Shown here: in pieces, positions 582 through 48,576 of the stretch
Layout: every line of letters starts with the position of its first letter
Numbering within the stretch: the stretch's first letter is position 1
Virus record (IMG/VR): IMGVR_UViG_3300021077_000115
Span: 238,064 to 302,063 of that record
Reading direction: 5' to 3' (one strand)
Origin: a virus
DNA length: 64,000 bases
The notes under the pieces: generated by a model
Seen by the model: only the letters and a program-made list of their open reading frames with translations
Told to the model about the DNA's origin: nothing
The model's database searches: none
Made by a program: the position numbers and the translations under genes

Positions 582-1434
582 ATTTCCTAGATAATGAGAA
601 GTTTGAATTTTCGTATATATGATTCAAAAAAGATAAAGCGTGTCTTCCAACAAAATACACATCAGTTTTACCAACACAACTATTTATATCATACTTATCG
701 CAAAACTTCTCAATATCAAATCTCATAGCATCTGAATATGATGTTATCTTACATCTTGGAGATGTACATCCGAACCAAGGATTTGTAATACTACCATCAC
801 TATCACTCAGCCCCCTAATAAAGTGCCACATTAATTCATCCGGTAGGTTTGGTAAAGATAATGAGTAGCATTTTTTACCAGGAACTATCCTAAGATGACC
901 GCAAATATCTTCTACAATTCTTGTTGAGTTTATTTTCACAGATAGGCAGTTTTCATCAGGTACTATATTGAGTGTCGGCGCAACAAATGATCGTAGTAAA
1001 TTCAAGCTCTCCACATCGTTTTTGTTGGCGTGAAGAGCAATCCGTTTGTTGTCGATGCTGCCATCACCAGCTATCAAACCTAATAGGTAAGCCTTGATTT
1101 CCGAGTCTATTTCTAAGAAACACGTTTCATTCTTTCGGTGTACAAACGCACCATTTCTTTCCCCAACATTCACCGACTTGTTATAGCAGTATGTGCAAAT
1201 ATCTTTATCTTGATTTTTTAATCTAGACTTTACAATCCACCTGTATCCCTTTAAATATCGACCCTTACATTTGATAGAAGATTTTAAGTCACACTCTATC
1301 AGTACCTTAGAATTTGTATTTTTGTAACTAGATAGGTCTACAATAACCATGACATCCCTCACATTTTCCACAAAAGAAACGAAAATATTCAATTTATTGC
1401 TATCCGTAGTTACTACTAAAACACCAAGTACCAT
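502..1434 (-). CDS. free-standing LAGLIDADG homing endonuclease with a Cys-rich N-terminal extension. The true start is probably an internal Met near 1350, because the annotated start overlaps the divergent cca gene.
   Basis: Two LAGLIDADG-type motifs are visible in the translation: YLLGLIAGDGSIDNK and HFIRGLSDSDGSI. A C-x2-C...C-x-C cluster sits N-terminal to them. The gene lies between unrelated genes and is not inside an ORF. Confidence 0.75.
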   Translation of the reverse strand: MVLGVLVVTTDSNKLNIFVSFVENVRDVMVIVDLSSYKNTNSKVLIECDLKSSIKCKGRYLKGYRWIVKSRLKNQDKDICTYCYNKSVNVGERNGAFVHRKNETCFLEIDSEIKAYLLGLIAGDGSIDNKRIALHANKNDVESLNLLRSFVAPTLNIVPDENCLSVKINSTRIVEDICGHLRIVPGKKCYSLSLPNLPDELMWHFIRGLSDSDGSITNPWFGCTSPRCKITSYSDAMRFDIEKFCDKYDINSCVGKTDVYFVGRHALSFLNHIYENSNFSLSRKFELYKIWKTWRPYKGTCVRPGRQSKT

Positions 1435-15415: not shown

Positions 15416-15761
15416 TCCATGTATTTACGACCATCTCATAATAAAGCTTCTTGGCTAATGTTCTCGCCTTAATATCTTTTCGCATGATAAATTTAGGCTT
15501 GAACCATTGAGCTAGTTTAGTATCCTGACAATAGATTTCATATCCTCTATCACCATCTTCTATAATCTCTACTTCTAGTTCACCAAGCAAACCACGTAGT
15601 TTTATCTTTTCTTCTACAGTTAGTAATATATCAGGCCAAATATCTTCTAGAGGAACACCTATCTGTTCTAGTATGCTTTTAATAAAAAGGTTTCTCTCCT
15701 CTTCCTCTACAACCTTTTCGTCTCCTCTATCTAGATAAACCGACCGATTCATTACCCACAT
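15381..15761 (-). CDS. hypothetical protein (126 aa)
   Basis: ORF in operon orientation. It overlaps the nrdJ stop region. Confidence 0.45.
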   Translation of the reverse strand: MWVMNRSVYLDRGDEKVVEEEERNLFIKSILEQIGVPLEDIWPDILLTVEEKIKLRGLLGELEVEIIEDGDRGYEIYCQDTKLAQWFKPKFIMRKDIKARTLAKKLYYEMVVNTWSVFDQEENEND

Positions 15762-18700
15762 CCACTATATGTACACTCCTCGTTGGTACAATTACCACAG
15801 GCAGCTCCAGTCTTTCGATATGTTCGCTTGCCACAAGATGGGCACTTTTCCATAGGGACTGCGTTTTTCCTATCAAAATCTTCAATAGTAGATGTCTTAG
15901 ACTCTTCCTCTTGCTGCTCTTCTGCATAAGTTCGCAAGACACGAGCAATATTAGTTGGCAAAGAGAATATATACTGTCCGCCAATCTTATCCAACTGCTC
16001 ACAGATGAACATGATAGGAACACCATGCCTCAAGTTCATGCTGGTTGTTCTTGCTGTCAGCTCTAGGATTTGAAGATCTTTTTCGCTCAATCCAAAATAC
16101 GGGGCAATCACCAAGACCTCATACGGCTTCTTGGTACCAGGGAAGAAGCTCACTGTAACATAAGCATTTCTCGGTTCACCATTACCAAAATCAATTCGAA
16201 TCTTGTGCGTCTCTGAATCCAGAATCTTGTCACGCTTTGGAGCAAATGCCTGACCGGGCGCATCAAAGATTGGTGTAAACCAACTAAGTACATCTTGCTT
16301 CGTATACTTGGGCAATGATATACCATCTGCCGTTTCCCAATCAAAATTGCCCTGAGCTAAACTCTTAGCCTTGGCAATCTCCTTCAATTCCTTGCTGACA
16401 TCTTCCAGCTTAGAGGCGATGGCATCCCACAGATCAAATCCTTCCTTATCAAAGACTTGACTATAATGTCCGATAAGATAGTTTTCGCACTTCAGCGCCT
16501 GCTTATCGCCTGTTACCAAAACTCCATCGCGAGATCCGTCAACATAAACGGTGACTCCTTTGAGGCCATATTTCCAAGCCTCCATATAGATCTTAGAAAC
16601 AACACTATTGGGAGTTCCTGCAGGTAAATTGATAGTACTACTAATCGAATGATCGATATGCTTCTGCTCAGCAGCCTGGATCATGATTCGCTTTGTCCAG
16701 TCTACCTCATCCGAGTTAACAAAGAATTCAGGAAGTGGTGCGCTCTCATCTAGGCCGAACTTCTCTAGATATGCTCTAGCATTGTGTGAGAACTGCTTGT
16801 ACTCTTGCCATGAATCACCATTGACGTCTGTGAAGTCAACACGTACACCAACATCATTTGGATTCACCTTCTTGCGGCGAATGAAGTAGATACGGAAGAC
16901 TGGTTCAACACCCGAAGAAACATTGAAGTAAGAAAAATTGCCTAGTTTGGAAATGATAGCCACCGAACCAGTTGGGGCTTGCGTCAACATAGAAATGTTG
17001 CGCCTTCCATATATAGCCATATCAGCTAGGATGTCTGCTGGTAGGTCTTTGATGAAAGGATTGTCCTTTTCCAATTCCCAATTGAACTCTGGGAAGGGCC
17101 CACGAATTTTTGCCAACTCTACAGATGTTCTATAGGCCGTTTCTTTGAATGTTCGGTAGATTTTATCTACCATTTCAATAGCAGCATCAGAATCATACCT
17201 AATACGAAGCTGTGCTAAAGCATCGGCTAGCCCATGAGTTCCTAAGCCAGTTCTACGACCATCACGCCCGGCATCATGAAGCTTCTGCCAGATAACAATC
17301 TCCTGATCGACATCCTCTTGGGTAGTGCCAGTGTCTTTGATAACCGTTATGATCTTCTCAATCAATTCCAATTCAAGATCAACAAGGTTATCACCCATCC
17401 TTGCTTGAATAGCAACATCGGCAATGAAGCGATCGAAATCGAACTGGGCTGTTCCCTCAAATGGGTTGTTGACGTAATTCGTTAGATTCAAAGATATCAA
17501 ACGGCAACTATCGCTTGCTGAAAGAATAATCTCTGAACATGGGTTAGTTGAAACTGACTTGAATCTTGGATAGCAATGTGCTGGTAATGTTCGTACGGCG
17601 TTATTCCAGAGAACCAAACCAGGCTCTGCTGACTTGGTTGCAGAATCAACAATAGCATCCCAAACACGGCGCGCAGAAACCTTTCGGCTGATCTTCGGCG
17701 TCTTACTTTCACAAGGCCAACGAACTTCATAATCAGTTCCATCTTCAACAGCCTTGAGGAACTCATCACTCAAGCGCAAGGAGATGTTAGCTCCTGTAAC
17801 TTGAGTTAGGTCATGCTTCATGTTCGTAAACTTGAGCACATCTGGATGATGGACATCCAAAGTTATCATCAAAGCGCCACGCCTCCCGCTGTTATGAACA
17901 TAAAATCCTTCGCACCAAAATAGATGTTCTTCAGGAAGCTCTAAATCGAATGTCTCTTCAACTCCGTCCTCTGTAATTGATGATACGGTCGCCTTTATAA
18001 GCAGACCGCTCTGAGCCAGCTTTTCGCCAGCAGACTTGATCTTCAAATACGCAGTGGCCGATACAAAATGTGAGTTATCAGGTATAAAATCATATTGATT
18101 ATGAGTTACGCCAAGTGACTTTGCTTTGTATGGTGTTGTATAATTGTCTCGCTTAGAAATGAAGCGTTCATATATCTTTTCTGCAGGAAAAGTACCACCA
18201 TCAATACAGGCAACCAATGCCTCTTGTGCATGTGTTCCTGTAATCGCTACAGAGTATAAATCTCTCCACTCTTTTGATGTACGATCTTCTGTGTGAATTT
18301 TACTAATAATTCCATTTGCCATCAACATTATCTGAATATCCTTGGCAAAAGAAAATGAAGTTGTTGAAAAAGAATATCCTTTTTTGGATTTACCGTTAGT
18401 TCCATCGGCGTCAAAGAAACCTGCCAAGAATGACATTTGAATCTCTGATGAGGCTTTTAATATACTAGATGGTACCCTAATTTTGGTTGATTTTTCCTTG
18501 AGTAGTGAATTAGCCTTCAACCAATGACAAACCAACTTACTGTTAATTGTGACCTTATTAACGGCACCATCACCGGGCCTAATTGATGCATCAATACCAA
18601 ATACTCTTTTAATTATCTTACAAGCTTGTGCCTGAACCGCCGGATGTTCATGAGCACATGCTATTGAAATCAATAATGGTTCGTTGAATTTATCATACTC

Positions 18701-19678
18701 AACGCCCCCATCACCATACATTAACCCAAGGATATATGCTAAATCAGTATTTATATTACGCGGTAAATTTACATCTTCATTTAATCTATTTGAATTATTG
18801 TATTGCTTCTTTACGTATTCTGGACAAACCAGATCATCAGTTCCAACGCCAACCCTCCAAGCTCCAGGTATTAATACTACAGAGTCACCCTCTTCAAAAT
18901 CACCTAGGCGCTTTTCTATCAGGACACCATCCTCTTCTGTTAAGAATAGATGATCTTCCGACGCCCGAACAGAGAAACCATACGATGTTTGTAGTTTGTA
19001 AATCTTCTTTGAACCATTAATGAATAAATTAGAAACCCCAATAAATCCATTCTTGGTCCATACAGAATCAATACTAGGCCTTACTTCCTCAATTGGAATT
19101 AGCCCATTTCTAGTAAGAACCCTCTCGCCTTTAGCAATACACTGTCCTATCTTTCTGGTAACTTCAGAGAAGAAATCTGCAAAGCTCCATGCTCCAGTTG
19201 TTGTGCGTGCGGCATTGTTCACCGTCATCCCATCTGGGCGCAGGGATGATAAATCAAACCCAACTCCACAGCGTCTTTTATAGAGTTGGGCAAGATTGTG
19301 AGCGGTCCTAAAAATACCAGAAATTGAATCTTCTGGAGATGCTTCAACGACGCAGTTGGAAGCACTCATTGTTTGGTAGGGATTTCCTACCGCCGCCATA
19401 ACTGAACCTTGTGGTACAATGCGTCCAAATTGAGACATGGCATTGTAATATATAGCTGTTTGATTTGTGTTATCAATAGAATCATCGTATCTAGTATCAA
19501 TACGAGCAAACTCTGTAGCCAGCCTATTGTGCATACTCTCTGGAGTTGGTTCTACAATATCACCATCAGAATCACGCATTGCGTATTTGTTCAGGTATAC
19601 GCTGGCTGATATCTCCTCTCCGTTGAAGTAAGCAAGTGCTAGTTTATGGGCATCTTCGTATGAATACTTTTCCGACAT
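15752..19678 (-). CDS. nrdJ: ribonucleotide reductase class II (adenosylcobalamin-dependent NrdJ), intein-containing, with a C-terminal Cys4 zinc ribbon
   Basis: The N-terminus is YLNKYAMRDSDGDIVEPTPESMHNRLATEFARID (the class II signature LRDRYF..D..G...E). It has no ATP cone. The C-terminus is CPSCGKRTYRKTGAACGNCTNEEC. The extein junction ...RKIGQ | SGRRGALM flanks a 417-aa insertion. Confidence 0.9.
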   Translation of the reverse strand: MSEKYSYEDAHKLALAYFNGEEISASVYLNKYAMRDSDGDIVEPTPESMHNRLATEFARIDTRYDDSIDNTNQTAIYYNAMSQFGRIVPQGSVMAAVGNPYQTMSASNCVVEASPEDSISGIFRTAHNLAQLYKRRCGVGFDLSSLRPDGMTVNNAARTTTGAWSFADFFSEVTRKIGQCIAKGERVLTRNGLIPIEEVRPSIDSVWTKNGFIGVSNLFINGSKKIYKLQTSYGFSVRASEDHLFLTEEDGVLIEKRLGDFEEGDSVVLIPGAWRVGVGTDDLVCPEYVKKQYNNSNRLNEDVNLPRNINTDLAYILGLMYGDGGVEYDKFNEPLLISIACAHEHPAVQAQACKIIKRVFGIDASIRPGDGAVNKVTINSKLVCHWLKANSLLKEKSTKIRVPSSILKASSEIQMSFLAGFFDADGTNGKSKKGYSFSTTSFSFAKDIQIMLMANGIISKIHTEDRTSKEWRDLYSVAITGTHAQEALVACIDGGTFPAEKIYERFISKRDNYTTPYKAKSLGVTHNQYDFIPDNSHFVSATAYLKIKSAGEKLAQSGLLIKATVSSITEDGVEETFDLELPEEHLFWCEGFYVHNSGRRGALMITLDVHHPDVLKFTNMKHDLTQVTGANISLRLSDEFLKAVEDGTDYEVRWPCESKTPKISRKVSARRVWDAIVDSATKSAEPGLVLWNNAVRTLPAHCYPRFKSVSTNPCSEIILSASDSCRLISLNLTNYVNNPFEGTAQFDFDRFIADVAIQARMGDNLVDLELELIEKIITVIKDTGTTQEDVDQEIVIWQKLHDAGRDGRRTGLGTHGLADALAQLRIRYDSDAAIEMVDKIYRTFKETAYRTSVELAKIRGPFPEFNWELEKDNPFIKDLPADILADMAIYGRRNISMLTQAPTGSVAIISKLGNFSYFNVSSGVEPVFRIYFIRRKKVNPNDVGVRVDFTDVNGDSWQEYKQFSHNARAYLEKFGLDESAPLPEFFVNSDEVDWTKRIMIQAAEQKHIDHSISSTINLPAGTPNSVVSKIYMEAWKYGLKGVTVYVDGSRDGVLVTGDKQALKCENYLIGHYSQVFDKEGFDLWDAIASKLEDVSKELKEIAKAKSLAQGNFDWETADGISLPKYTKQDVLSWFTPIFDAPGQAFAPKRDKILDSETHKIRIDFGNGEPRNAYVTVSFFPGTKKPYEVLVIAPYFGLSEKDLQILELTARTTSMNLRHGVPIMFICEQLDKIGGQYIFSLPTNIARVLRTYAEEQQEEESKTSTIEDFDRKNAVPMEKCPSCGKRTYRKTGAACGNCTNEECTYSGCG
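17891..19141 (-). mobile_element. intein (417 aa) with a LAGLIDADG homing-endonuclease domain inside nrdJ
   Basis: It starts at Cys180 (CIAKGERVLTRNG, Hint block A). LAGLIDADG motifs are LAYILGLMYGDGGV and MSFLAGFFDADGT. It ends ...GFYVHN followed by Ser (+1) of SGRRGA. The boundaries were mapped to codons by hand (ACA codon at 19139-19141, GTT at 17891-17893). Confidence 0.8.
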
Positions 19679-19684
19679 AATTCC

Positions 19685-20344
19685 TCAAAACAAGTCTATC
19701 AATTCTCGTTTCAGCGTCTTCTTTGCTTCTGTTAATAACTTTATGCAGCTCATCCTAGAAATACTTAATCTATCGCAAATCTTACCAATAGAATAAAGGT
19801 CTCTGCGATTCTCGGATGCTCCGCCTAGTTCATAATGTAAGGTTATTACCTTACGCTGATCCTCTGGCAATTTATCCACCGCACTCCGAATCAAAGTAAC
19901 CGCTTCGTCTTTAGCAATATGATCGAGAGCACTAATCTCTCCGTCGATAATTATTGGAAGTTGAGATACTTTGTACGGTTGAACATGCTTGGCATGTTTC
20001 AGCGGCACCTTGATAGTAGAGTGGCGATTCGCCTCTCGACTAATCTTGGTTTTGATGTACTTATTTGCCCACCAGTAGAAATCGCCCTTTTCGGGCTTAT
20101 AAGTCTGCAATGCCCTATACAAAGCAATACGGCCATCTTGTTTAAGGTCTTCGTAATTTGCGAATCCCTTATATCTTCTAGTACGTGCATCAACTAAGTA
20201 TTCAAGTTCTTTGGTACATTCTGATTGAATATCTTCAAGTTCTCTTTTTAGATTGTTGCTCTTAGACTTTACACATTTCTTTCTAAGGACAACCATATTA
20301 CTCAAAAGAGCATTAATCCTATCTTGATCAATTACATTATTCAA
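19685..20344 (-). CDS. RNA polymerase sigma factor, sigma-70 family (regions 2 and 4)
   Basis: DLKQDGRIALYRALQTYKPEKGDFYWWANKYIKTKISREANRHSTIKVPLKH matches sigma-70 region 2.1-2.4/3.0 (DLiQeG.lgL..A...fdp.kG.kFstYA.wwIr.aI.R.......iriP.h). A C-terminal HTH (SIGKICDRLSISRMSCIKLLTEAKK) corresponds to region 4. Confidence 0.8.
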   Translation of the reverse strand: MNNVIDQDRINALLSNMVVLRKKCVKSKSNNLKRELEDIQSECTKELEYLVDARTRRYKGFANYEDLKQDGRIALYRALQTYKPEKGDFYWWANKYIKTKISREANRHSTIKVPLKHAKHVQPYKVSQLPIIIDGEISALDHIAKDEAVTLIRSAVDKLPEDQRKVITLHYELGGASENRRDLYSIGKICDRLSISRMSCIKLLTEAKKTLKRELIDLF

Positions 20345-20356
20345 AGTTCTCCTATA

Positions 20357-20620
20357 TTAATCGTTATTGCCGTATAAATTACGAGCAAGCTTTTCATCTT
20401 TTCTAGCCTGACGAGCTATATCTTTCCCTTCTTTCCATAGCTTTTGTACAAGATCTCGACCAGTCAATTCAACTTGAGCAGAAACATTACAAGATATTAA
20501 TCTTTTCACTTGTCCTTCAACTCCACAATTAGGACATGCTGTAGGAATAGGTGCATGTATACTGTATGTATCTTCAAATTCTTGTTGACAAGCTTCGCAC
20601 AAATGATCATAAGTTGGCAT
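20357..20620 (-). CDS. FmdB-family zinc-ribbon protein
   Basis: MPTYDHLCEACQQEFED....CPNCG matches the FmdB CxxC...CxxC pattern at the N-terminus. Confidence 0.55.
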   Translation of the reverse strand: MPTYDHLCEACQQEFEDTYSIHAPIPTACPNCGVEGQVKRLISCNVSAQVELTGRDLVQKLWKEGKDIARQARKDEKLARNLYGNND

Positions 20621-20623
20621 ATA

Positions 20624-20800
20624 TTATCTCCTAATTTCCTTGAGTGTTTTACCAAGGAGTACTAATTCAACATCATCCATCCAATTGTCTCGTACTCTTT
20701 GTTTAAAGCTCTCATCAATAACCTTAAATACCAAATACAAATCACCTGTAATTGGATCAACTTCCATTCTAATGGCTCGTGCAACAGTATCAAAGACCAT
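20624..20800 (-). CDS. small hypothetical protein (58 aa)
   Basis: Its ATG overlaps the dnaB TGA stop (ATGA). Translation MVFDTVARAIRMEVDPITGDLYLVFKVIDESFKQRVRDNWMDDVELVLLGKTLKEIRR. It is not in the ORF track because it is under 60 aa. Confidence 0.35.
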   Translation of the reverse strand: MVFDTVARAIRMEVDPITGDLYLVFKVIDESFKQRVRDNWMDDVELVLLGKTLKEIRR

Positions 20801-22251
20801 CAACTATCCTTTGCCTTATTCTTTGCCTCCTGAATTGATCTAATCAGGTCTGGTATATTGGCAGTTACATCTCCAGGAATTTCTCTCTGATCATATGGTA
20901 CATCTATAAGAGATGCATTGGCAAAATTCTTAATCAAATTACCTTGACCCAATGGACCCTTTCGATTCTTGACTACATGAATCTTCAAATCTGGAAAGCT
21001 CATCTCGTTTTGCCTTGTCTCTATTTGAATACCCAAATTTACGTGATGCATTATCAAAGATGAACGTCCCCATCGATGCATACCAACTGCACGATTCTCA
21101 TCCTTGGATCCTGTTGCGTTCCTCTTGAGATCTGTAAGCTGGGCAGCTGTAATAATTGCATTGTCATAAGCTCTTCCGAACTCATGCAATGATGCAGCTA
21201 TCCCTCCAAGCTTCAACCAATCTTGTTCTTTTGCAAGAGCCGTACTGTGCATCAAACCCATATAATCAACGACTACCACGTCTGGACGATATCGTAACAG
21301 TGCATCATGATATCGCAGCTCAACCTCTTCAATTGTAAGGTTTCGTGGGACATCTACAATGTCAAAATAATAGCCGCTTCCTTGATATGCTTTGATAAAA
21401 TCATAAGCCTTTTGTACTCTCATCTCTTCCTCACGAGATAGAGTGGCTTTGGTCAAGCCTCGCTGTGGAACATTAGCTAAGCTGGCAAGGAACCTAACAA
21501 AGCAGTCCTCATAGGGCATTTCCAGGGAGAAATAGAGGATATTGTAACCCTTCACCATTGAGGTGCTGGCAGACGACTCGATTGTATTTCCCTGAAGCCA
21601 AATCTGCTTGGCCATATTGTTAAGCAACTGCGACTTGCCGGCATTGCTCTCACCACCAATCATAATCAGCTCGCCAGGTGAAATGCCCCCAGAAACGGCA
21701 TCAATCATACTGTAGCCGGTCTTGATTTCTACGGAATCTTCGGGGTTAAGCTTGCGCGCCTCGTAAGAATCAATGAATTCAGGGATATAATCGCCGACAG
21801 GCTTTTGGGTATAGGTTCGTTCAAGCTCTATCGAGGTAATTCGGTTGATAGCCAACGATAGCTTGTTGAAATACTCCTCTGGGTTATCTGGAGAATCAGG
21901 ATCATCAGATGACGCCTGCGCACGGATATCCTCTACCGCCTGTTGTTGAAACCTCTTCTTCAACTGTTCGAGATCATAGGGATATTCGCGAGTGTCGTAT
22001 TCTAGCCCTTCTATCTCACTCCAAGCATCCTCTATATTGGCCACGAGCAGTGGATTGCCACTGTGATGTTCGATAAGGGTTCGTTTGGTAGGGGGCGATC
22101 TGAAGTGTTTGGTATAATCCAGGACTAGTTTGGCGAAACGCTGAACGTCAATATCGAACAGAGTATGATCATAACGAGAAACGAATGTGAGCGCGCTTAC
22201 CTTGTCATGTACAAGGGCTTTAAGAATCTTAAGATCTAGTTCCTCTATCAT
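20800..22251 (-). CDS. dnaB: replicative DNA helicase, DnaB family
   Basis: Walker A in the RecA-like domain is GYSMIDAVSGGISPGELIMIGGESNAGKSQLLNNMA. Walker B is DVVVVDYMGLM. The C-terminal arginine-finger region is typical of DnaB. Confidence 0.85.
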   Translation of the reverse strand: MIEELDLKILKALVHDKVSALTFVSRYDHTLFDIDVQRFAKLVLDYTKHFRSPPTKRTLIEHHSGNPLLVANIEDAWSEIEGLEYDTREYPYDLEQLKKRFQQQAVEDIRAQASSDDPDSPDNPEEYFNKLSLAINRITSIELERTYTQKPVGDYIPEFIDSYEARKLNPEDSVEIKTGYSMIDAVSGGISPGELIMIGGESNAGKSQLLNNMAKQIWLQGNTIESSASTSMVKGYNILYFSLEMPYEDCFVRFLASLANVPQRGLTKATLSREEEMRVQKAYDFIKAYQGSGYYFDIVDVPRNLTIEEVELRYHDALLRYRPDVVVVDYMGLMHSTALAKEQDWLKLGGIAASLHEFGRAYDNAIITAAQLTDLKRNATGSKDENRAVGMHRWGRSSLIMHHVNLGIQIETRQNEMSFPDLKIHVVKNRKGPLGQGNLIKNFANASLIDVPYDQREIPGDVTANIPDLIRSIQEAKNKAKDS

Positions 22252-24017
22252 AATTCTCCCTTTTTAATCATGTCTCGCATATCCTGCCCACCAATAACAG
22301 GAACCAATTTAACCACTTTCATCAAACTTTCAATACTTGCTCGCAAAGGTCCAGAGAAACTTTCCTCAACCTTCACGCTGTTGGTACAGAAGAATAGAGG
22401 TACCTTATTTTGAATTCTGGTCCTCATAATTGGCTCAAGAATGCGGCCAAATAGATCGGCGGCATTCTCACTGCCCATAAAGCGAGCATCGAACTCATCT
22501 ATTACCAAAAAGTCTATAGATAGTAATATCTCTCGCGCCTGAGATTTTACCTCTGGCGAGGAATACAGCATGATATGGATTATGTCCGTCAGATTGACAT
22601 ACAGAGCGCTGTAGCTCTTTTCGACGGCTCGCTTCAGGATGCAGCAGGAAACCATCGTATTGTGCGTTGCGATAAAATTGCGCGTAATCAAAAATAAATG
22701 AGATGGGCTATCAACCGTAAGGCATCTCATTGGCCTTGGATCAATTATAGAAACCTTAGTTATGAACCTGTGAGTTGTTCTGGTTTCCTGTGATTTTTCC
22801 AATCTTATATTTTGAAGTTTTCGAGTAATTCTACAGATTGGTAGTTTTGTAGTAAATGTTACTCGATAACGATCCTGGCATCGCTTACCATTGAGAAAGC
22901 TTTTGTTTTTATTGATTGTTGCCTTTATCCCAAAGCTCAAAATCAATTGTAAAAACCCCCTAGCTAATGGCTCAATAACAGAACAGAACTCACATAGGCC
23001 AGTATCAGTTATATGGCCATCAGTATCCATCAATCCCTGAACTAAAGCAAGTCTCTGTTCAAATGAAGAATGTAAATATTCCCAAGGTATATACTTATTC
23101 TGTATTAGCCCAAATTCTCTCAATTCTTTAGCTAATCTTCCGGTTTTTCTCTTAAACTTTCCAACAGGAATCAATTTACCAATTCTATAAAGAAAAGATT
23201 TTGATTTAGAACTAACTGATGAAGGCTTCAAAAACGCTTCATATCCAATCAGCTCTATATTATGAATAATCTCTATATCTGCAGATTCAATCGATCCCTC
23301 TCTACAAGTCCCATCACCAAGCCAGCAACCCAAAACATAAGGATCTATTAGTAGTGATTTGCTGCTGTAATTTATTGGCCTCGAACACTCAATGGAATGA
23401 TTAGATATTTTTTGCTTACCATTAACCTTTTGAGTTAGGAATATTTCCTTAGTAGTCCTTACTTCTGGAGCTGATTTATCAAGTCTGCTTTTTCTAGTAT
23501 GAGTAAGCCATAAATGATCAGCACAAGCATTTACTTTTAAACCATCATCAAACTCTAGTTCATAAGATTCTGGGCTTATCTGTATTGGGTGTAATTTTAA
23601 TACCTTACAAATATTACCATTTTCATCAAATAAAGAATCTCCTTCGCAAAGATCCTTTAGCTTGATAAATCCGGTTGGTGTTGGCAACTCGGTCTCAAGA
23701 TCTAATTGTTTACCGATTCCATGTTTACCGGCAAAGAATGCCCGCTCACCATTCTTGTAAGTCTCCTTGATGTCTTTTGTAACATCTTGATAGACTTTAC
23801 CCAGAATAGCGGGGCCTGACCAATCCGTCATGTCACGCCACCAGTAATCAACTGGTATATTGGCGTCGTAATAGCGCTGGAATGCAGTTGTAAGAGAAGC
23901 ACCAGCTGTGGTTAGTATGCCATCGTTGGATTGACTATCAAGAAGGTCACTGACGGAATCATCTAGCTTTCTTCTTGGGATGTTTAGGAATGGGTTTTGT
24001 AAATATTGGGTATCCAA
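22248..24017 (-). CDS. AAA+ P-loop ATPase (DnaC/IstB-like putative helicase loader) interrupted by an intein in the Walker A motif
   Basis: The exteins join as ...AFFAGKHGIGK | TMVSCCILK..., which reconstitutes GxxGxGKT. Walker B is FLVIDEFD. The combined extein is about 240 aa. The gene lies immediately upstream of dnaB and is translationally coupled to it. Confidence 0.65.
   Translation of the reverse strand: MDTQYLQNPFLNIPRRKLDDSVSDLLDSQSNDGILTTAGASLTTAFQRYYDANIPVDYWWRDMTDWSGPAILGKVYQDVTKDIKETYKNGERAFFAGKHGIGKQLDLETELPTPTGFIKLKDLCEGDSLFDENGNICKVLKLHPIQISPESYELEFDDGLKVNACADHLWLTHTRKSRLDKSAPEVRTTKEIFLTQKVNGKQKISNHSIECSRPINYSSKSLLIDPYVLGCWLGDGTCREGSIESADIEIIHNIELIGYEAFLKPSSVSSKSKSFLYRIGKLIPVGKFKRKTGRLAKELREFGLIQNKYIPWEYLHSSFEQRLALVQGLMDTDGHITDTGLCEFCSVIEPLARGFLQLILSFGIKATINKNKSFLNGKRCQDRYRVTFTTKLPICRITRKLQNIRLEKSQETRTTHRFITKVSIIDPRPMRCLTVDSPSHLFLITRNFIATHNTMVSCCILKRAVEKSYSALYVNLTDIIHIMLYSSPEVKSQAREILLSIDFLVIDEFDARFMGSENAADLFGRILEPIMRTRIQNKVPLFFCTNSVKVEESFSGPLRASIESLMKVVKLVPVIGGQDMRDMIKKGEL
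22659..23708 (-). mobile_element. intein (~350 aa) with a LAGLIDADG endonuclease domain in the P-loop of the AAA+ ATPase. It lacks an obvious N-terminal Cys or Ser.
   Basis: Hint-like start region LPTPTGFIKLKDLCEGDSLFDENGNICKV. LAGLIDADG-like motifs YVLGCWLGDGTC and LVQGLMDTDGHI. The C-terminus is ...NFIATHN followed by Thr (+1). The residue after GK is Gln, so the upstream boundary is uncertain and a class 3-like mechanism is possible. Confidence 0.6.
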
Positions 24018-24384
24018 ATTCTACCTCGGGAAGTACTTCGATCTTCTGTGATCTTTTCAGCAATTCACGAGCCCGCTTTCTTTCCTCTTCCGCTTTGAGC
24101 TTATGCAACTCTGCCAAATTCTTGGCTCTCATATCCTCTCGGGGATAATAACGGTCAGGCTCGGGCTCTTCTTCTAGAAAGACCTTCCCTGGCTCGCTCG
24201 ACCCCGTTGTTTGATGAGTGATCTTAATTGCCAATACATTCTTAAATGGATCCTGCACAATAAACACAGATCTATCAAACAGTTCAAGAACCATCTGCTC
24301 GTCCGTTAGCTCAATCAGCCTACCCGCCTCAATAACGTTGTTCGCACAAATGATCTTGATAACAGATCCAATCTCAATTTCCAT
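23959..24384 (-). CDS. hypothetical protein with a Lys/Arg-rich C-terminus (141 aa)
   Basis: ORF in operon orientation. Confidence 0.45.
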   Translation of the reverse strand: MEIEIGSVIKIICANNVIEAGRLIELTDEQMVLELFDRSVFIVQDPFKNVLAIKITHQTTGSSEPGKVFLEEEPEPDRYYPREDMRAKNLAELHKLKAEEERKRARELLKRSQKIEVLPEVEFGYPIFTKPIPKHPKKKAR

Positions 24385-25012
24385 CTAGTCTCCCTAAAAC
24401 ACTATCATCGAAGCCAATACTCTTCAGATCATCAAACATCTTTGTATATATCTGAAGTTCGTTATTACCAGGATCATTCTCGACAGCAATTTTAGCAAAT
24501 GCTAAATCACCATATGTACTAACATCAAGATTAAGATTATTAACCACGCTCTTACAATCCTGTGGTAATAAAGTTGATCTTGTAATCTTGGTTTCTTTAC
24601 GGAACTTCTTTTTGAATTCAAATATGAAGTTCGTTGTGAAAAAGTAAGCGATAGAACTTAAAGAAACCTTCTTTGGAACTATATACTGATCAAATACGAA
24701 ATCTATATAGTCCTTTATGGTTTGATTATCATCAACTCCTAGAAATGAAATCATTCTCTTTATACAAAATAACTCAGAGCATTTACTTGGTGGGCCGCTG
24801 TAAGAAAGAGTAAAGTCAATGCCCATGTAGTCTTTGTAGCGCTTCAATATATGGCCAAGGAAATGATGGTCTTTCCATTCCGAAATATCATCAAAACTAT
24901 ACCCGGACAATTTTGATTTGAACTTTAGCCAAGAACTATTCGGCGAGCCATCTTCTTTGAGCCCACTCACCTTTCGAACTTTAGTTGTTGCTACTTTTTT
25001 TCCTGTGGCCAT
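24374..25012 (-). CDS. hypothetical protein (212 aa)
   Basis: ORF in operon orientation. Confidence 0.45.
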   Translation of the reverse strand: MATGKKVATTKVRKVSGLKEDGSPNSSWLKFKSKLSGYSFDDISEWKDHHFLGHILKRYKDYMGIDFTLSYSGPPSKCSELFCIKRMISFLGVDDNQTIKDYIDFVFDQYIVPKKVSLSSIAYFFTTNFIFEFKKKFRKETKITRSTLLPQDCKSVVNNLNLDVSTYGDLAFAKIAVENDPGNNELQIYTKMFDDLKSIGFDDSVLGRLDGN

Positions 25013-26469
25013 GTTACATCGAACTCCGATTCGTATATCTCGCGTCTAATTTCGGCATGCTCTGTAAGATATGGAGCTTGATCTGCAAAGTCTATAATAG
25101 CCGACATGTCTTTTCCCTTGTAGGGACGAATGACTCGACCTATTCTCTGCAAAGCTCTTACAGATGATTTACCAGATCCGGCAATAACAAGTCCTGAAAG
25201 TATTGGTAGGTCAATTCCAATATCGAAGATTTTACTTGCAACCAAGCATTTGATTTTGCCAGCTTCCAATTCATCTTTAATTTTGTCACGCTGTTTTGCG
25301 CTGTCTTTTCCACTAAGAAGACCAGTTGGAACATTTTTCTTCAGCGAATCAAAAAGAACATCCCCATGTTTGATGGTGTGGAAGAGAACCAACGGCACAA
25401 AGCCTTGCTCGACCATACTTGTAGCCGCTCTCAAAATCATAGAGTTGCGTTGTTCGTTCTCTACAACGTATTTGGAATAAACCTTGGGATATTTTCCTGT
25501 TCTGAAAGGATAAGGCTTAGGAGCTAGGAATCGTATATTTGGCTGTACAAGATATCCTTGCTTAATTAATGTTTGTGCAGATATATCAACAATTATCTTA
25601 CCAAGAAATGCTTCAATTAGCATATCTGCGTTATCATCTCTCCATGGACTTGCAGACATACCGTATACGTATTCGGCTTTTATGTTTTTTGAAATAACCT
25701 GAACTGTATCACATGCCGCCAAATGGCATTCATCCATAATATGTACAGAGCTATTCAATAGCATCTCTTTGATCTTGCTAAACTTGTTAGGATCTATTTT
25801 CTTTTCAGTTTCACTAACATCATCAAGAGTGATATTCTTCTTCAGACCTAATGCCTGACCAACACTCCAGATTGTTGCGATATTTATGTTCTTTATCTCG
25901 CACTTACCGTCTCCAATGATTCCAATTTCCTCATCGAATATCTTAGAGAAGAACTCTTGCAACTGGTAAAGAAGATCTTTTCCAATTACGTAAACAATCG
26001 TTGGCTTGCCAAGCTTTGCAGTAATGAGAGCGGCGATCAGGGTCTTTCCGCCACCGGTTGCCAATCTGATGATGCCGCGCTCCGTCCCCACGGCCTGATT
26101 GGCGGCATACTCTTGGTACGGTCGAGGTTCTTTGCCAATCGTACGCAGTTTTTCAGAGACATCAATTGGAGTTGATTTTTCTATTGGCAATCTTTCGTCA
26201 ACAATTAATGGATGGATTCCCTTCTGTGAATAGAAGTCCAAAACTCTTGGAAGAAGCCCAACTGGGAATTTTCCAGATGAAGATAGCAGATGCCTCTTCC
26301 CATCCCAAGAAACGAACTCACCAAGTTCATTTACATATCCCTTATACGCAGGAGAAAATTCGGCACCAAGTATTTGAAATGACAACTCTCGATCCAAATC
26401 ACTAAGGATCTCATCATCATCTTCGTCAACAACCTTGCAGGAGTTTTGGTGCCGAATAATTGCTGTCAT
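24991..26469 (-). CDS. superfamily 2 DEAD/DEAH-box helicase (UvsW / RAD25-like)
   Basis: Motif I is PRPYQEYAANQA...LATGGGKTLIAAL. Motif II is HIMDECHLA (DECH). Motif VI is ALQRIGRVIRP. Confidence 0.8.
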   Translation of the reverse strand: MTAIIRHQNSCKVVDEDDDEILSDLDRELSFQILGAEFSPAYKGYVNELGEFVSWDGKRHLLSSSGKFPVGLLPRVLDFYSQKGIHPLIVDERLPIEKSTPIDVSEKLRTIGKEPRPYQEYAANQAVGTERGIIRLATGGGKTLIAALITAKLGKPTIVYVIGKDLLYQLQEFFSKIFDEEIGIIGDGKCEIKNINIATIWSVGQALGLKKNITLDDVSETEKKIDPNKFSKIKEMLLNSSVHIMDECHLAACDTVQVISKNIKAEYVYGMSASPWRDDNADMLIEAFLGKIIVDISAQTLIKQGYLVQPNIRFLAPKPYPFRTGKYPKVYSKYVVENEQRNSMILRAATSMVEQGFVPLVLFHTIKHGDVLFDSLKKNVPTGLLSGKDSAKQRDKIKDELEAGKIKCLVASKIFDIGIDLPILSGLVIAGSGKSSVRALQRIGRVIRPYKGKDMSAIIDFADQAPYLTEHAEIRREIYESEFDVTWPQEKK

Positions 26470-27005
26470 TCAACCTTCAAAACTTGAACAGCTTCTGTTG
26501 AAAGACCTCTACTTCCAAATAAACAATATAGGCGATCCATATCTTTTTGATCATCAGAAGAAACTGAACCAAAACATCCAAAGAATTCTGGATCTGGTAA
26601 TATCATGCAAACATTATCTTCTATATCATCAATTCCAAATACTCTATTTGATTCTATTTGTTTTTTCAAAGAAGTGCTGCACACGATATTACGATCTTGA
26701 ATTAGATTGAAGTTATACTTATTCATTTTCTTCTCAAGACCTTCATTGATGTAATCATCTATGATAAACTTCAAAAGTTTATTAGCCATCTCAACTATAC
26801 CAAAGATATCAGGATCTATAAGCCTCATCATCAACCTATCTCTGACATCAACTTTTCGCTTACAAATACTACCATCTGCTTGTAGTAAATAATAAGTTGT
26901 TTCATCAGCTTCATAGACAGGTTGATAGTAATTGGATAGCCTCCCTAAACAATCACACACAAATATGCGCTGCAGGCTATCAATCGAGCCATGTTTGAAT
27001 TCCAT
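26466..27005 (-). CDS. hypothetical protein (179 aa)
   Basis: ORF whose start overlaps the stop of the tubulin-like gene. Confidence 0.45.
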   Translation of the reverse strand: MEFKHGSIDSLQRIFVCDCLGRLSNYYQPVYEADETTYYLLQADGSICKRKVDVRDRLMMRLIDPDIFGIVEMANKLLKFIIDDYINEGLEKKMNKYNFNLIQDRNIVCSTSLKKQIESNRVFGIDDIEDNVCMILPDPEFFGCFGSVSSDDQKDMDRLYCLFGSRGLSTEAVQVLKVE

Positions 27006-28399
27006 TACTTCTTTCTCCGGTCATGAACGGCAGCGTTGTGTAGCTTGGTAAAGGAAGATGCCTTCTGCTGAATCCTGCGCTTGATTTCCTCAACCTGATT
27101 GGTGCTCTCTTCTCCAACATCAACCTTAATGGTCATGTTGCGCTCATCGTCCTTGCGCTGAGCAGCTCCCATTTTCAACTGGGCCTCGGTCTTCAATTGA
27201 TTAACTCTTTCCTCTGGTAATCCAAGACCGGAGAACATTGAATAGACCTTTACGCAGTCATCCTCAGACTCTTCTTTGTAAATACCATGGAAGGGCACAA
27301 CGCCTTCACACGTATCAAGAATCATCGATTGTGCAAAGTGTAGGCTGGAACTTGGAATTTTGTTCCACACCCTATCAGGGGCCACAAGCATGAATCCAGC
27401 ATATCTAGCCTGACGAATATTGAATCCTGAAGCCAGCAAATTACCCTTGAGAGACTCTAGAATTGCTGAGGCAATTGCCATCTCATCTTCATAATCCGGG
27501 ACAGTGGTAACGCCATATACCGTGAAGCCTTTGCCGTCCATAAATAGCTTACCAAACTCAGAGGAATCAAGAACCTTGACTCCTTCATCTGGGCGGCGGC
27601 TCATTGTATTGAAAACATCCAAAGGCTCTACAATAGCCTTATTCGAAACCTGGAAGAAGTTGAATGGACCAACATCACTATACAATGACTCAATCTTTGC
27701 GTTATCAACAGCAATGATGTTGTGTATCTTGCCAGCGGTAAAGAGCTTCGTAAACGTGCTTAGTGTCTGCCATGCATTGTGCTTCAGCTGAGCATCTTCG
27801 CTGGCTTTTGGTAGAACCGTAAGTACAGCAATTGGCTTTTCTAGCTGCGACAGAATATCAACGACAACTGGCACAGAACCAGCACCAGAACCACCACCAA
27901 GTGATGTGCAGAAAATGAATACTTCTACATCGCTCAAATGACGCTGAATAAGTTGATTGATAGCTGCTCGATAGGCATCCGCAGCATCATGGCCAATGGT
28001 CAGATCTTTTGCAGCGCCTCCAAGACCAAAGTCAAGCAATAGCTTTTGCCGCTCTGGAAGCTTGATATTCTCCAAATCCTGAGGGGCTGTGTTCATGCAA
28101 ACCGCTGGGTAACCAAGAGCAAAGAATTGTTCTGCCAAGCGGCTTCCTGCCTGACCAGACCCAACAATTCCAAAGCGCAGGCTTCGTTGCTGCTCCTCTA
28201 CAATACGTGGTGGCATAACCTCCTCCTTTACCTCCTCTTTTGTCTCGTTGAGCTTGGCAAGTTCCTTTGCTTCTTCTGCTCTCTTCTGTGCGGCTCGCGC
28301 CTTCAGAGCGGCCAATTTTTCTTCATCAACTTGTGGTGTTTCGATATCGTTCACTATTTCCTCTCGATTTAATTTTTCAATCTTTGATTGAGTTACCAT
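27005..28399 (-). CDS. tubulin/FtsZ-superfamily GTPase (phage PhuZ/TubZ/FtsZ-like) with a ~75-aa charged N-terminal extension and a basic C-terminal tail
   Basis: The T1 loop is FGIVGSGQAGSRLAEQF. The tubulin signature is FIFCTSLGGGSGAGSVPVV (GGGTGSG variant). An FtsZ-like T7 region is LTVLPKASEDAQLKHNAWQ...HNIIAVDNAKIE. The N-terminal ~75 aa are K/E-rich and look like a coiled coil. Confidence 0.7.
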   Translation of the reverse strand: MVTQSKIEKLNREEIVNDIETPQVDEEKLAALKARAAQKRAEEAKELAKLNETKEEVKEEVMPPRIVEEQQRSLRFGIVGSGQAGSRLAEQFFALGYPAVCMNTAPQDLENIKLPERQKLLLDFGLGGAAKDLTIGHDAADAYRAAINQLIQRHLSDVEVFIFCTSLGGGSGAGSVPVVVDILSQLEKPIAVLTVLPKASEDAQLKHNAWQTLSTFTKLFTAGKIHNIIAVDNAKIESLYSDVGPFNFFQVSNKAIVEPLDVFNTMSRRPDEGVKVLDSSEFGKLFMDGKGFTVYGVTTVPDYEDEMAIASAILESLKGNLLASGFNIRQARYAGFMLVAPDRVWNKIPSSSLHFAQSMILDTCEGVVPFHGIYKEESEDDCVKVYSMFSGLGLPEERVNQLKTEAQLKMGAAQRKDDERNMTIKVDVGEESTNQVEEIKRRIQQKASSFTKLHNAAVHDRRKK

Positions 28400-48574: not shown

Positions 48575-48576
48575 AT

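What the first reader, a model, noticed from the sequence alone, without database searches (positions are those of the whole stretch)
22248..24017. Intein inserted in the Walker A P-loop of a DnaC-like AAA+ ATPase, apparently without an N-terminal Cys or Ser nucleophile
Joining the flanks gives ...FFAGKHGIGK|TMVSCC..., a canonical GxxGxGKT P-loop, with Walker B FLVIDEFD about 50 aa later. The 350-aa insert has a Hint-like start (LPTPTGFIKLKDLCEGDSLFDENG), two LAGLIDADG-like motifs and ends in HN followed by Thr. The residue after GK is Gln rather than Cys or Ser. Either the N-terminal splice junction lies a few residues away from the obvious site, or this is a class 3-type intein that uses an internal Cys. 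Such inteins are rare and were first found in phage helicase and terminase genes. The host protein lies immediately upstream of dnaB and is translationally coupled to it, which makes it the probable helicase loader. Until the intein splices, neither ATP binding nor loading is possible.
Basis: seen in the sequence. Interest (0 to 1): 0.6.

Follow-up and report, generated by a model that had tools for sequence, protein, structure and literature searches.

The report
Class 3 intein splitting phage helicase-loader P-loop
A self-splicing protein element of the known "class 3" type, which uses an internal cysteine instead of a first-residue nucleophile, sits in the ATP-binding loop of a DnaC-like helicase-loader gene of an uncultured large phage; it is a clean example of a known kind, not a new mechanism.

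Summary
It lies on the minus strand: ORF 22248..24017, 589 aa. A 350-aa insert (window 22659..23708) splits the Walker A motif GKHGIGK|T. Removing it in silico gives a 239-aa protein that matches intein-free homologues end to end without gaps (best 97% identity, reading G(R/K)HGIGKTMVSCC). The junctions are therefore K103|Q104 and N453|T454, not shifted.

The insert is a class 3 intein with a LAGLIDADG homing endonuclease:
- It has no nucleophile at position 1 (Gln).
- It has the full WCT triplet (Trp67 B:12, Cys329 F:4, Thr348 G:5), plus His65, His349-Asn350 and Thr+1.
- It aligns in register with the crystallised class 3 DnaB inteins (E 4e-13).
- The AlphaFold model (pLDDT 96.6) matches PI-SceI and those mini-inteins.

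Gln1 is the commonest first residue in the 120 closest relatives (54 of 120). Of these, 69 occupy the same GK|T site of homologous DnaC-like proteins.

A cultured precedent exists: Clostridium phage phi8074-B1 gp42, which is mis-annotated.

The host protein is an IstB/DnaC/DnaI-type AAA+ protein overlapping dnaB by ATGA.

Splicing itself was not tested. Verdict: new member of a known kind, modest interest.

The parts
22248..24017 (-). Precursor gene, 589 aa: DnaC/DnaI/IstB-like AAA+ protein interrupted by an intein. TTG start with GAGG 7 nt upstream. The first 59 nt overlap the upstream 141-aa ORF.
   Evidence: An identical protein, P0121, is found on contigs up to 118 kb.
23709..24017 (-). 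N-extein, aa 1-103. It ends in the first part of Walker A, GKHGIGK (23709..23729).
   Evidence: It is collinear with residues 1-103 of intein-free P0001-P0010.
22659..23708 (-). Class 3 intein with an embedded LAGLIDADG homing endonuclease. It is 350 aa, Gln104 to Asn453 of the precursor. GC is 0.35 (GC3 0.26) against 0.44 (GC3 0.45) for the exteins.
23667..23708 (-). Intein block A, QLDLETELPTPTGF. Residue 1 is Gln, which is not a nucleophile.
   Evidence: It aligns with A-LALYTPLPTPTGW of MchDnaB1 in register 2-70. Residue 1 in 120 relatives: Q 54, A 33, M 22, L 3, R 2, K 1.
23508..23528 (-). Intein block B, ACADHLW: Cys62 (B:7), His65 (B:10), Trp67 (B:12, the W of WCT).
   Evidence: (H65 and W67 are invariant in the alignment A1)
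23307..23339 (-). LAGLIDADG motif 1, YVLGCWLGDGT. Asp132 is the presumed catalytic residue.
   Evidence: Pfam LAGLIDADG_3 and Hom_end. G131, D132 and G133 are conserved in at least 90% of sequences. Foldseek matches PI-SceI and I-DmoI.
23013..23045 (-). LAGLIDADG motif 2, LVQGLMDTDGH. Asp230 is the presumed catalytic residue.
   Evidence: D228 and G231 are invariant and D230 is conserved in at least 90% of sequences.
22710..22733 (-). Intein block F, PMRCLTVD. Cys329 (F:4) is the predicted class 3 nucleophile.
   Evidence: It aligns with VRCVEVD of MchDnaB1 and Msm DnaBi1. C329 is invariant in A1 and present in 111 of 115 relatives that cover the position.
22659..22676 (-). Intein block G, FIATHN: Thr348 (G:5, the T of WCT), His349, Asn350.
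22248..22658 (-). C-extein, aa 454-589 plus the stop codon. Thr454 is both the +1 splice nucleophile and the Walker A Thr. Walker B FLVIDEFD lies at 22488..22511, sensor-I-like FFCTNS at 22377..22394, and a candidate Arg finger LRASIESL at 22323..22346.
   Evidence: (D157, E158, T195 and N196 are invariant)
20800..22251 (-). DnaB-like replicative helicase, 483 aa. Its start overlaps the loader stop codon as ATGA.
   Evidence: Pfam DnaB_C 83 bits. PHROG 19 E 3e-54. TIGR00665 E 1e-23 but below its cut-off. The same gene order is found in L001-L005.

Best explanation
The 1050-nt insert encodes a bifunctional class 3 intein: a Hint splicing domain with a LAGLIDADG homing endonuclease nested in it. 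It sits between the Lys and Thr of the Walker A P-loop of a phage DnaC/DnaI/IstB-type AAA+ protein, the probable loader of the DnaB-like helicase encoded next to it.

The proposed mechanism is inferred from the family and was not tested here.
1. Cys329 (block F:4), positioned by His65 and Trp67, attacks the Lys103-Gln104 peptide bond. This gives an internal thioester branch.
2. The N-extein is passed to the side chain of Thr454 (+1).
3. Asn350 cyclises and releases the intein.
4. An O-N shift restores the peptide bond, giving the 239-aa protein with an intact GKHGIGKT loop.

Gln at position 1 plays no nucleophilic role.

At the DNA level, the endonuclease is expected to cut intein-free alleles at the GGxATxGGxAAr|ACn site. 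This would copy the intein in by homing. It would account for the patchy presence of the intein among otherwise syntenic phage genomes and for its lower GC content.
For: Junctions:
- In-silico excision gives a 239-aa protein that matches intein-free homologues of exactly 239 aa over 100% of their length. The best is P0001 at 97% identity, reading GRHGIGKTMVSCC.
- The spliced DNA aligns without gaps to L001 (82.5%) and L004 (80%), which have the same gene neighbours.

Class 3 signature:
- Gln1, His65, Trp67, Cys329, Thr348, His349, Asn350 and Thr+1 are all present.
- W is present in 120 of 120 relatives. C is present in 111 of 115, T in 113 of 114 and N in 112 of 114 relatives that cover those positions. 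The +1 residue is Thr or Ser in 111 of 114.
- phmmer aligns the intein in register with the solved class 3 inteins 6rix/6riy (MchDnaB1) and 6bs8 (Msm DnaBi1) at E 4e-13 to 5e-11.

Fold:
- The AlphaFold2 model has pLDDT 96.6 and pTM 0.93.
- Foldseek gives PI-SceI at E 1.9e-19 with TMq 0.74-0.77.
- The class 3 mini-inteins cover the Hint part at TMt 0.80-0.85.

Endonuclease:
- Pfam LAGLIDADG_3 is above its cut-off.
- Both motif aspartates and other endonuclease residues are conserved across 58 sequences.

Mobility:
- Intein GC is 0.35 against 0.44 for the exteins.
- The nearest extein relative lacks the intein, and the nearest intein relative is only 62% identical.
- Intein identity and extein identity are uncorrelated over 49 alleles (rho 0.09).

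Literature:
- The definition and mechanism of class 3 inteins, and tolerance at residue 1, are in PMC2807308.
- The GK|T P-loop is described as the classic site in PMC5050341.
Against: - No experiment or proteomic data show that this precursor splices. The mechanism is transferred from homologues that are 30-40% identical over the Hint blocks.
- Pfam Intein_splicing scores only 13.9 bits against a cut-off of 35.8. This may reflect how far class 3 inteins lie from that model, but it is a failed test.
- Block B:7 is Cys here rather than the Asp or Ser of the studied class 3 inteins. Its effect on splicing is unknown.
- No paper I could search describes a class 3 intein with Gln1.
- Endonuclease activity and the helicase-loader function of the host protein are inferred, not shown.
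Confidence: 0.88

Rival explanations
1. It is an ordinary class 1 intein whose true N-terminal junction lies a few residues away, at a Cys or Ser. A few extra residues would then be left in, or removed from, the P-loop.
For: Many relatives have Ser or Cys at intein position 3, reading QLS or QLC (37 and 17 of 120). On its own this could suggest a nucleophile near the junction.
Against: - This intein has Asp at position 3, and no Cys, Ser or Thr occurs before Thr6.
- Intein-free alleles read GK|T or GK|S with no extra residues and are exactly 239 aa.
- The alignment to the crystallised class 3 inteins is in register from residue 2, and those inteins have Ala1.
- The WCT triplet co-varies with the absence of an N-terminal nucleophile (PMC2807308).
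Confidence: 0.02
2. [quoted passage not shown]
For: Like class 2 inteins, it lacks a nucleophile at position 1.
Against: - The known class 2 inteins are the archaeal KlbA orthologues that begin with Ala1, and in Mja KlbA the attacking C-extein residue is Cys+1 (PMC2807308); that paper separates them from the WCT-triplet inteins that have the block F Cys.
- This intein has Thr+1 and the full WCT triplet.
- It is homologous to experimentally proven class 3 inteins.
Confidence: 0.04
3. It is a decayed or non-splicing Hint/LAGLIDADG insertion. The gene would then be a dead allele, or a permanently inactivated loader, like the Arthrobacter FB24 Arth_1007 intein pseudogene.
For: - Splicing was not tested.
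- Such dead class-3-like inteins exist (PMC3196547).
- Pfam Intein_splicing is below its cut-off.
Against: - Every residue known to be needed (H65, W67, C329, T348, N350, T+1) is intact, unlike the WDT/Gly1 FB24 case.
- The reading frame is open for all 589 codons.
- Exteins and intein are both conserved across dozens of alleles.
- The AlphaFold model is very confident.
Confidence: 0.05
4. The interruption is removed at the RNA level by a group I or group II intron carrying a LAGLIDADG ORF, rather than at the protein level.
For: LAGLIDADG endonucleases are also carried by group I introns. Phage replication genes often contain such introns.
Against: - The insert is in frame with both exteins and has no stop codon.
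- Its two ends fold as the halves of a Hint domain and carry intein blocks A, B, F and G.
- An E-value-threshold Rfam scan of 20000..26500 finds no intron family.
Confidence: 0.01

Closest known systems
Class 3 DnaB inteins of mycobacteria: Mycobacterium chimaera MchDnaB1 (PDB 6rix/6riy) and M. smegmatis DnaBi1 (PDB 6bs8)
   Same: - The Hint domains are homologous (E 4e-13, in register).
- The catalytic positions have the same numbering: H65, W67, Cys at F:4, T-H-N, Thr+1.
- MchDnaB1's native N-extein likewise ends ...GK directly before intein residue 1.
   Different: - Those are mini-inteins of 139-145 aa without an endonuclease, and they start with Ala1 and have Asp at B:7.
- This one is 350 aa with a LAGLIDADG domain, Gln1 and Cys at B:7.
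- The host protein here is the loader, not the helicase.
Mycobacteriophage Bethlehem DnaB intein, the prototype class 3 intein (PMC2807308)
   Same: - It is phage-borne and of similar size (341 aa), and the toxicity of its clones in E. coli was attributed to an intein homing endonuclease.
- It has the WCT triplet, Thr+1 and a non-nucleophilic residue 1.
   Different: - It begins with Pro1 after Gln-1, whereas this one begins with Gln1 after Lys-1.
- The host gene differs.
Clostridium phage phi8074-B1 gp42 (NC_019924 27880..29583), annotated 'DarB-like antirestriction'
   Same: - It is a class-3-type intein: GNGK|AQPLY...HLW...CQCIMV...VTHN|T.
- It sits at the GK|T site of a DnaA/IstB-type AAA+ protein, directly upstream of a DnaB-like helicase.
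- The arrangement is therefore the same, in a cultured phage.
   Different: - It begins with Ala1.
- The whole protein is only 26% identical to this one.
- The exteins cannot be aligned by BLASTP (E 1.2), so this is probably an independent invasion.
- The record does not annotate it as an intein.
Class 3 inteins in the P-loop of phage large terminases, such as mycobacteriophage TerL1-a and Rhodobacter phage RcKickapoo (PMC5050341)
   Same: - They use the same 'classic' Lys|Thr P-loop site.
- They are about 35% identical to this intein over its full length, with the same WCT triplet.
- Residue 1 is variable: Ala, Arg or Gly.
   Different: The host protein is a packaging ATPase, not a replication protein.
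PI-SceI (VMA1 intein) and PI-PfuI, full-length inteins with LAGLIDADG endonucleases
   Same: They have the same two-domain architecture. They are the best structural matches to the whole model (TMq 0.64-0.77).
   Different: They are class 1 inteins with Cys1, and sequence identity is only 12-16%.

Membership tests
Class 3 intein | No Cys, Ser or Thr nucleophile at intein position 1 | tested here: met
   Residue 1 is Gln104. The junction is fixed by intein-free alleles that read GK|T.
Class 3 intein | WCT triplet: Trp at block B:12, Cys at block F:4, Thr at block G:5 | tested here: met
   W67, C329 and T348 align to the same positions of 6rix and 6bs8. They are invariant in the 58-sequence alignment.
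Class 3 intein | [quoted passage not shown] | tested here: met
   Thr454 (+1), His65, His349 and Asn350 are present.
Class 3 intein | Hint (Hedgehog/intein) fold formed by the N- and C-terminal parts of the insert | tested here: met
   The AlphaFold2 model has pLDDT 96.6. Foldseek gives TMt 0.80-0.85 to MchDnaB1 and Msm DnaBi1, and also matches PI-SceI and Hedgehog Hh-C. Pfam Intein_splicing is below its cut-off (13.9 against 35.8 bits).
Class 3 intein | Precise excision that restores a functional host protein | tested here: met
   This was tested in silico only. The spliced sequence is collinear, residue for residue, with 239-aa homologues up to 97% identical and restores GxxGxGKT.
Class 3 intein | Splicing proceeds through a thioester branch on the block F cysteine | not testable with these tools
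   This needs expression of the precursor and of C329A, N350A and T+1A mutants.
LAGLIDADG homing endonuclease (intein-borne) | Two LAGLIDADG motifs, each with the catalytic acidic residue, in a pseudo-dimeric alpha-beta fold | tested here: met
   The motifs are VLGCWLGDG (D132) and VQGLMDTDG (D230). The fold matches the endonuclease domains of PI-SceI and PI-PfuI, and I-DmoI.
LAGLIDADG homing endonuclease (intein-borne) | Presence/absence polymorphism at one site among homologous genes, the signature of homing | tested here: met
   More than 100 intein-free homologues and 69 intein-bearing ones share the same GK|T site. Intein and extein identities are uncorrelated. The intein has lower GC.
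LAGLIDADG homing endonuclease (intein-borne) | Cleaves the intein-free allele | not testable with these tools
   This needs an in-vitro cleavage assay on the empty site, for example L001 4001..4720.
DnaC/DnaI/IstB-type AAA+ ATPase (initiator clade) | AAA+ core with Walker A, Walker B and sensor I; family-level HMM match | tested here: met
   - For the spliced extein, Pfam IstB_IS21 scores 26.3 bits against a 24.1 cut-off.
- PHROG 50 'DnaC-like helicase loader' gives E 4e-13.
- PDB DnaI 4m4w gives E 2e-6.
- The top Foldseek hits are IstB, DnaC (6qem), DnaI and DnaA.
Replicative helicase loader DnaC (E. coli) or DnaI (B. subtilis), as orthologue | Score above the NCBIfam equivalog cut-off | tested here: not met
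   DnaC NF005931 scores 17.6 bits against 357. DnaI NF006505 scores 20.9 bits against 228. The protein is DnaC-like, not an orthologue of either.
Replicative helicase loader, as function | Encoded next to the DnaB-type helicase and loads it | tested here: inconclusive
   Adjacency and the ATGA overlap with the DnaB-like gene are conserved in L001-L005. Loading activity cannot be tested here.
Class 1 intein | Cys or Ser at intein position 1 | tested here: not met
   Residue 1 is Gln.
Group I intron with LAGLIDADG ORF | Conserved intron RNA structure; the ORF is not required to be in frame with the exons | tested here: not met
   There is no Rfam hit at E <= 1 in 20000..26500. The insert is in frame and its ends form a Hint domain.

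The most novel reading that the evidence does not exclude
The Gln1/Cys-B:7 inteins may form a distinct sub-lineage of class 3 inteins tied to the helicase-loader P-loop of large phages. A second active-site cysteine (Cys62, block B:7) sits near the catalytic Cys329. This could make splicing redox-sensitive or otherwise conditional. If so, the intein would act as a post-translational switch on helicase loading, and thus on the timing of phage replication, rather than as a purely selfish element. The oxidative-stress sensitivity reported for the class 3 Msm DnaBi1 intein (PMC6195587, abstract seen) is a precedent for conditional splicing. Nothing here tests the idea for this intein.
Probability: 0.08. 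Interest if true: 0.55.

Novelty: new member of a known kind. Interest (0 to 1): 0.25.

Why it matters
The finding adds a well-defined allele to a known class of inteins: a DnaC-like helicase loader as host, with Gln at position 1 and Cys at block B:7. This allele is common in a family of uncultured large phages. It has a precedent in a cultured phage, where it was mis-annotated.

Practical value:
- Annotation. The 589-aa gene should be called an intein-containing DnaC-like loader. Clostridium phage phi8074-B1 gp42 should not be called DarB-like.
- Protein engineering. This is a natural class 3 intein that tolerates Lys at -1 and Thr at +1, with many natural residue-1 variants (Gln, Ala, Met, Leu, Arg, Lys).

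It does not open a new mechanism or resolve an open question.

Tried and rejected
- Megablast of 20800..26469 against GenBank phages gave no match. The phage is uncultured, and only protein-level relatives exist.
- The contig of the 97%-identical intein-free allele P0001 has no DNA on file. The empty site was therefore shown with L001 and L004, whose encoded proteins P0002 and P0003 are 89% and 86% identical to the spliced product.
- A plain MAFFT DNA alignment placed the 1050-nt gap 130 nt too far upstream. I replaced it with a codon-guided gapless comparison.
- Pfam Intein_splicing did not reach its cut-off. Class assignment rests instead on the PDB sequence match, the block residues and the fold.
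- I looked for published class 3 inteins with Gln1. The supplementary tables of PMC2807308 are not held, and a full-text search for inteins + Gln1 + class 3 found nothing. Whether Gln1 has been described in print remains open. Empirically it is the commonest residue 1 in this clade.
- A literature search for intein + DnaC + helicase loader found no paper describing an intein in a loader.
- PHROG 50 ('DnaC-like helicase loader') contains intein-like columns: the intein matches profile positions 93-250. These do not lie at the P-loop position of that profile, so I do not use this as evidence for the same site.
- Four rival readings were considered and rejected: a shifted junction, a class 2 intein, a dead intein and a group I intron (see rival explanations).


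Full report
**Observation**

The coordinates 22248..24017 are one open reading frame on the minus strand. It has a TTG start with a GAGG Shine-Dalgarno-like sequence upstream and encodes 589 aa.
- The N-terminal part ends ...FFAGKHGIGK (aa 97-103).
- The insert begins QLDLETELPTPTGF and contains YVLGCWLGDGT and LVQGLMDTDGH.
- The insert ends ...FIATHN and is followed by TMVSCC.
- Walker B FLVIDEFD lies 49 residues further on.
- The stop codon overlaps the ATG of a 483-aa DnaB-like gene as ATGA, with AGGGAG just upstream.

**Where the junctions are**

The in-silico spliced protein (239 aa) was searched against the large protein collection. It found 254 relatives. The 120 listed are nearly all 175-270 aa and carry no insert. 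The best is 97% identical over 100% of its length and reads GRHGIGKTMVSCC.

At the DNA level, the gene minus 1050 nt (window 22659..23708) aligns without a single gap to two intein-free alleles at 82.5% and 80% identity. Those alleles lie in the same gene neighbourhood: UvsW-like helicase, two small genes, the loader, DnaB, a zinc ribbon and a sigma factor.

The insert is therefore exactly Gln104 to Asn453. The idea that the real junction lies a few residues away at a Cys or Ser is excluded.

**What the insert is**

Sequence evidence:
- phmmer against all PDB sequences returns the class 3 mini-inteins of Mycobacterium chimaera DnaB (6rix/6riy) and M. smegmatis DnaB (6bs8) as the three best hits, at E 4e-13 to 5e-11.
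- These align residue 2-70 to residue 2-70, and the last 27-28 residues align to the C-terminal block.
- In that register, the catalytic positions of class 3 inteins are all occupied as the definition requires: His65 (B:10), Trp67 (B:12), Cys329 (F:4), Thr348 (G:5), His349, Asn350 and Thr+1. Residue 1 is the non-nucleophile Gln.
- The definition comes from Tori et al. (PMC2807308). It requires a non-nucleophilic first residue co-varying with the Trp-Cys-Thr triplet, and Thr or Ser at +1.

Conservation in the 120 closest intein relatives from metagenomes:
- Trp is present in all 120.
- Cys F:4 is present in 111 of the 115 that cover the position.
- Thr G:5 is present in 113 of 114, and Asn in 112 of 114.
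- The +1 residue is Thr or Ser in 111 of 114.

Structure evidence:
- An AlphaFold2 model built on 58 sequences is very confident, with pLDDT 96.6.
- Its best structural matches are the full-length endonuclease-bearing inteins PI-SceI (E 1.9e-19, TMq up to 0.77) and PI-PfuI.
- The class 3 mini-inteins cover the Hint part at TMt 0.80-0.85, and I-DmoI covers the endonuclease part.

The endonuclease looks intact. Pfam LAGLIDADG_3 is above its threshold, and both motif aspartates (D132, D230) and flanking glycines are conserved.

An Rfam scan at E <= 1 finds no intron RNA. The frame is open throughout, so removal at the RNA level is not supported.

**Is Gln1 odd?**

In class 3 inteins residue 1 is not a nucleophile. 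The prototype starts with Pro1, and its P1A, P1S and P1C mutants still splice (PMC2807308).

Residue 1 in the 120 relatives is Gln in 54, Ala in 33, Met in 22, Leu in 3, Arg in 2 and Lys in 1. Among GenBank phage relatives I read Ala (most), Arg, Gly and Cys.

So Gln1 is the usual state in this clade. I found no paper that mentions it, and the relevant supplementary tables were not available.

One further difference from the studied class 3 inteins is Cys at block B:7 (Cys62). It is present in 81 of the 120 relatives, where the others have Asp. I did not resolve what this means.

**Host protein**

Evidence for an IstB/DnaC/DnaI-type AAA+ protein:
- The spliced extein passes Pfam IstB_IS21 narrowly, at 26.3 bits against a 24.1 cut-off.
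- It matches PHROG 50 'DnaC-like helicase loader' at E 4e-13.
- It matches B. subtilis DnaI in PDB 4m4w at E 2e-6.
- A model of its 97%-identical intein-free homologue (pLDDT 88.5) is closest to IstB, E. coli DnaC in the DnaBC complex, DnaI and DnaA. These belong to the initiator clade of AAA+ proteins.

It is far below the NCBIfam equivalog cut-offs for DnaC and DnaI. It is therefore DnaC-like, not an orthologue of either.

Its position directly upstream of the DnaB-like helicase, overlapping it, is conserved in related contigs. This supports a role as helicase loader but does not prove it.

That the precursor cannot bind ATP is an inference from the 350-residue interruption between the P-loop Lys and Thr.

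**Mobility and distribution**

- The intein is AT-richer than its host gene: GC 0.35 against 0.44, and GC3 0.26 against 0.45.
- Of the 120 closest intein relatives, 69 sit at the same GK|T site of homologous DnaC-like exteins, which are 24-74% identical to this one. The others sit at GK|S or GK|T sites of dCTP deaminases, terminases and DNA methylases.
- The nearest extein relative (97%) has no intein. The nearest intein relative, apart from the identical protein P0121, is only 62% identical.
- Across 49 full-length alleles, intein identity and extein identity are uncorrelated (rho 0.09, p 0.56).

This is the pattern expected of a homing element that moves among alleles.

**Comparison with what is known**

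- Class 3 inteins were defined in 2010 on a phage DnaB intein. Most of the original set sat in P-loops of helicase-like proteins and terminases.
- By 2020, 1701 had been counted in nr, and 82.5% of these carried LAGLIDADG motifs (PMC7891396).
- The Lys|Thr P-loop position is called the 'classic' intein site (PMC5050341).
- A cultured phage already carries the same arrangement. Clostridium phage phi8074-B1 gp42 reads GNGK|AQPLY...HLW...CQCIMV...VTHN|T. Its spliced extein scores as Bac_DnaA/IstB, and it lies directly upstream of a DnaB-like helicase. The RefSeq record labels it 'DarB-like antirestriction'. Its exteins are not alignable to ours, so it is probably an independent invasion.
- I found no paper describing an intein in a helicase loader.

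**Verdict**

The element is a new member of a known kind: a new host allele with Gln1 and Cys at B:7. It is not a new mechanism. Splicing, endonuclease activity and loader function remain inferred. Interest is modest at 0.25.

**Context**

The window belongs to an uncultured tailed phage of the large-genome type:
- a TubZ/PhuZ-like tubulin at 27005..28399;
- baseplate J at 55386..58643;
- a ribonucleotide reductase at 15752..19678, which carries a second intein of the ordinary class 1 kind.

Related contigs reach 450-460 kb.

Noticed in passing
window 17891..19141 (-), inside the ORF 15752..19678: There is a second intein in the same window. It is a 417-aa class 1 intein (...RKIGQ|CIAKGER...GFYVHN|SGRR) with a LAGLIDADG domain, inside a ribonucleotide reductase large subunit. 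The orthologue on the related contig L004 is 1683 aa and, by its Pfam hits, carries two inteins.
   Followed up: partly
NC_019924.1 27880..29583 (locus L007 2911..4614): Clostridium phage phi8074-B1 gp42 is annotated 'DarB-like antirestriction' in RefSeq and 'hypothetical' in GenBank. It is in fact a DnaA/IstB-type AAA+ protein with a class-3-type intein at GK|T, directly upstream of the DnaB-like helicase gp43.
   Followed up: yes
intein residue 62, window 23523..23525 (-): Block B:7 is Cys in this intein and in 81 of 120 relatives. The Ala1 relatives and the crystallised class 3 inteins have Asp there. This puts a second cysteine close to the catalytic centre, and its role is unknown.
   Followed up: no
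relatives P0204-P0238: The same intein clade (35-40% identical, Ala1, WCT) occurs in about 30 dCTP deaminase proteins at ...ARLEGK|SSLGRLGL. This is a GK|S site that is not a Walker A loop. It also occurs in DNA methylases at RRAYGK|SH. Every host site in the clade shares GK followed by Ser or Thr.
   Followed up: no
contig of P0001, compared with window 24991..25012: The genome with the 97%-identical intein-free loader has a 251-aa GIY-YIG endonuclease gene between the UvsW-like helicase and the next gene. This window has none there. The two genomes therefore differ by at least two mobile endonuclease elements.
   Followed up: no
window 27005..28399 (-): A tubulin/FtsZ-family protein (Pfam Tubulin, E 2.5e-13) is encoded here; its counterpart on L001 also hits TubZ_C weakly. 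This is typical of large 'jumbo' phages. Homologous loader genes lie on contigs of 446-463 kb, one of them labelled 'Candidatus Pacearchaeota archaeon', which may be a mis-binned phage.
   Followed up: partly
window 23959..24017: The loader's TTG start overlaps the end of the upstream 141-aa ORF by 59 nt. Gene calls on related contigs show the same overlap (55-59 nt) and the same N-terminus (MDTQ/LDTQ).
   Followed up: partly
window 1349..2941 (+): This ORF is a 530-aa protein with a PolyA_pol head domain and an HD domain, resembling a CCA-adding enzyme. It is one of the few large plus-strand ORFs (at least 120 aa) in a window where such ORFs are almost all on the minus strand.
   Followed up: no
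window 45575..55374 (-): Two very large ORFs lie next to the baseplate J gene: one of 999 aa with a dockerin-type repeat, and one of 2265 aa. They were not examined further.
   Followed up: no
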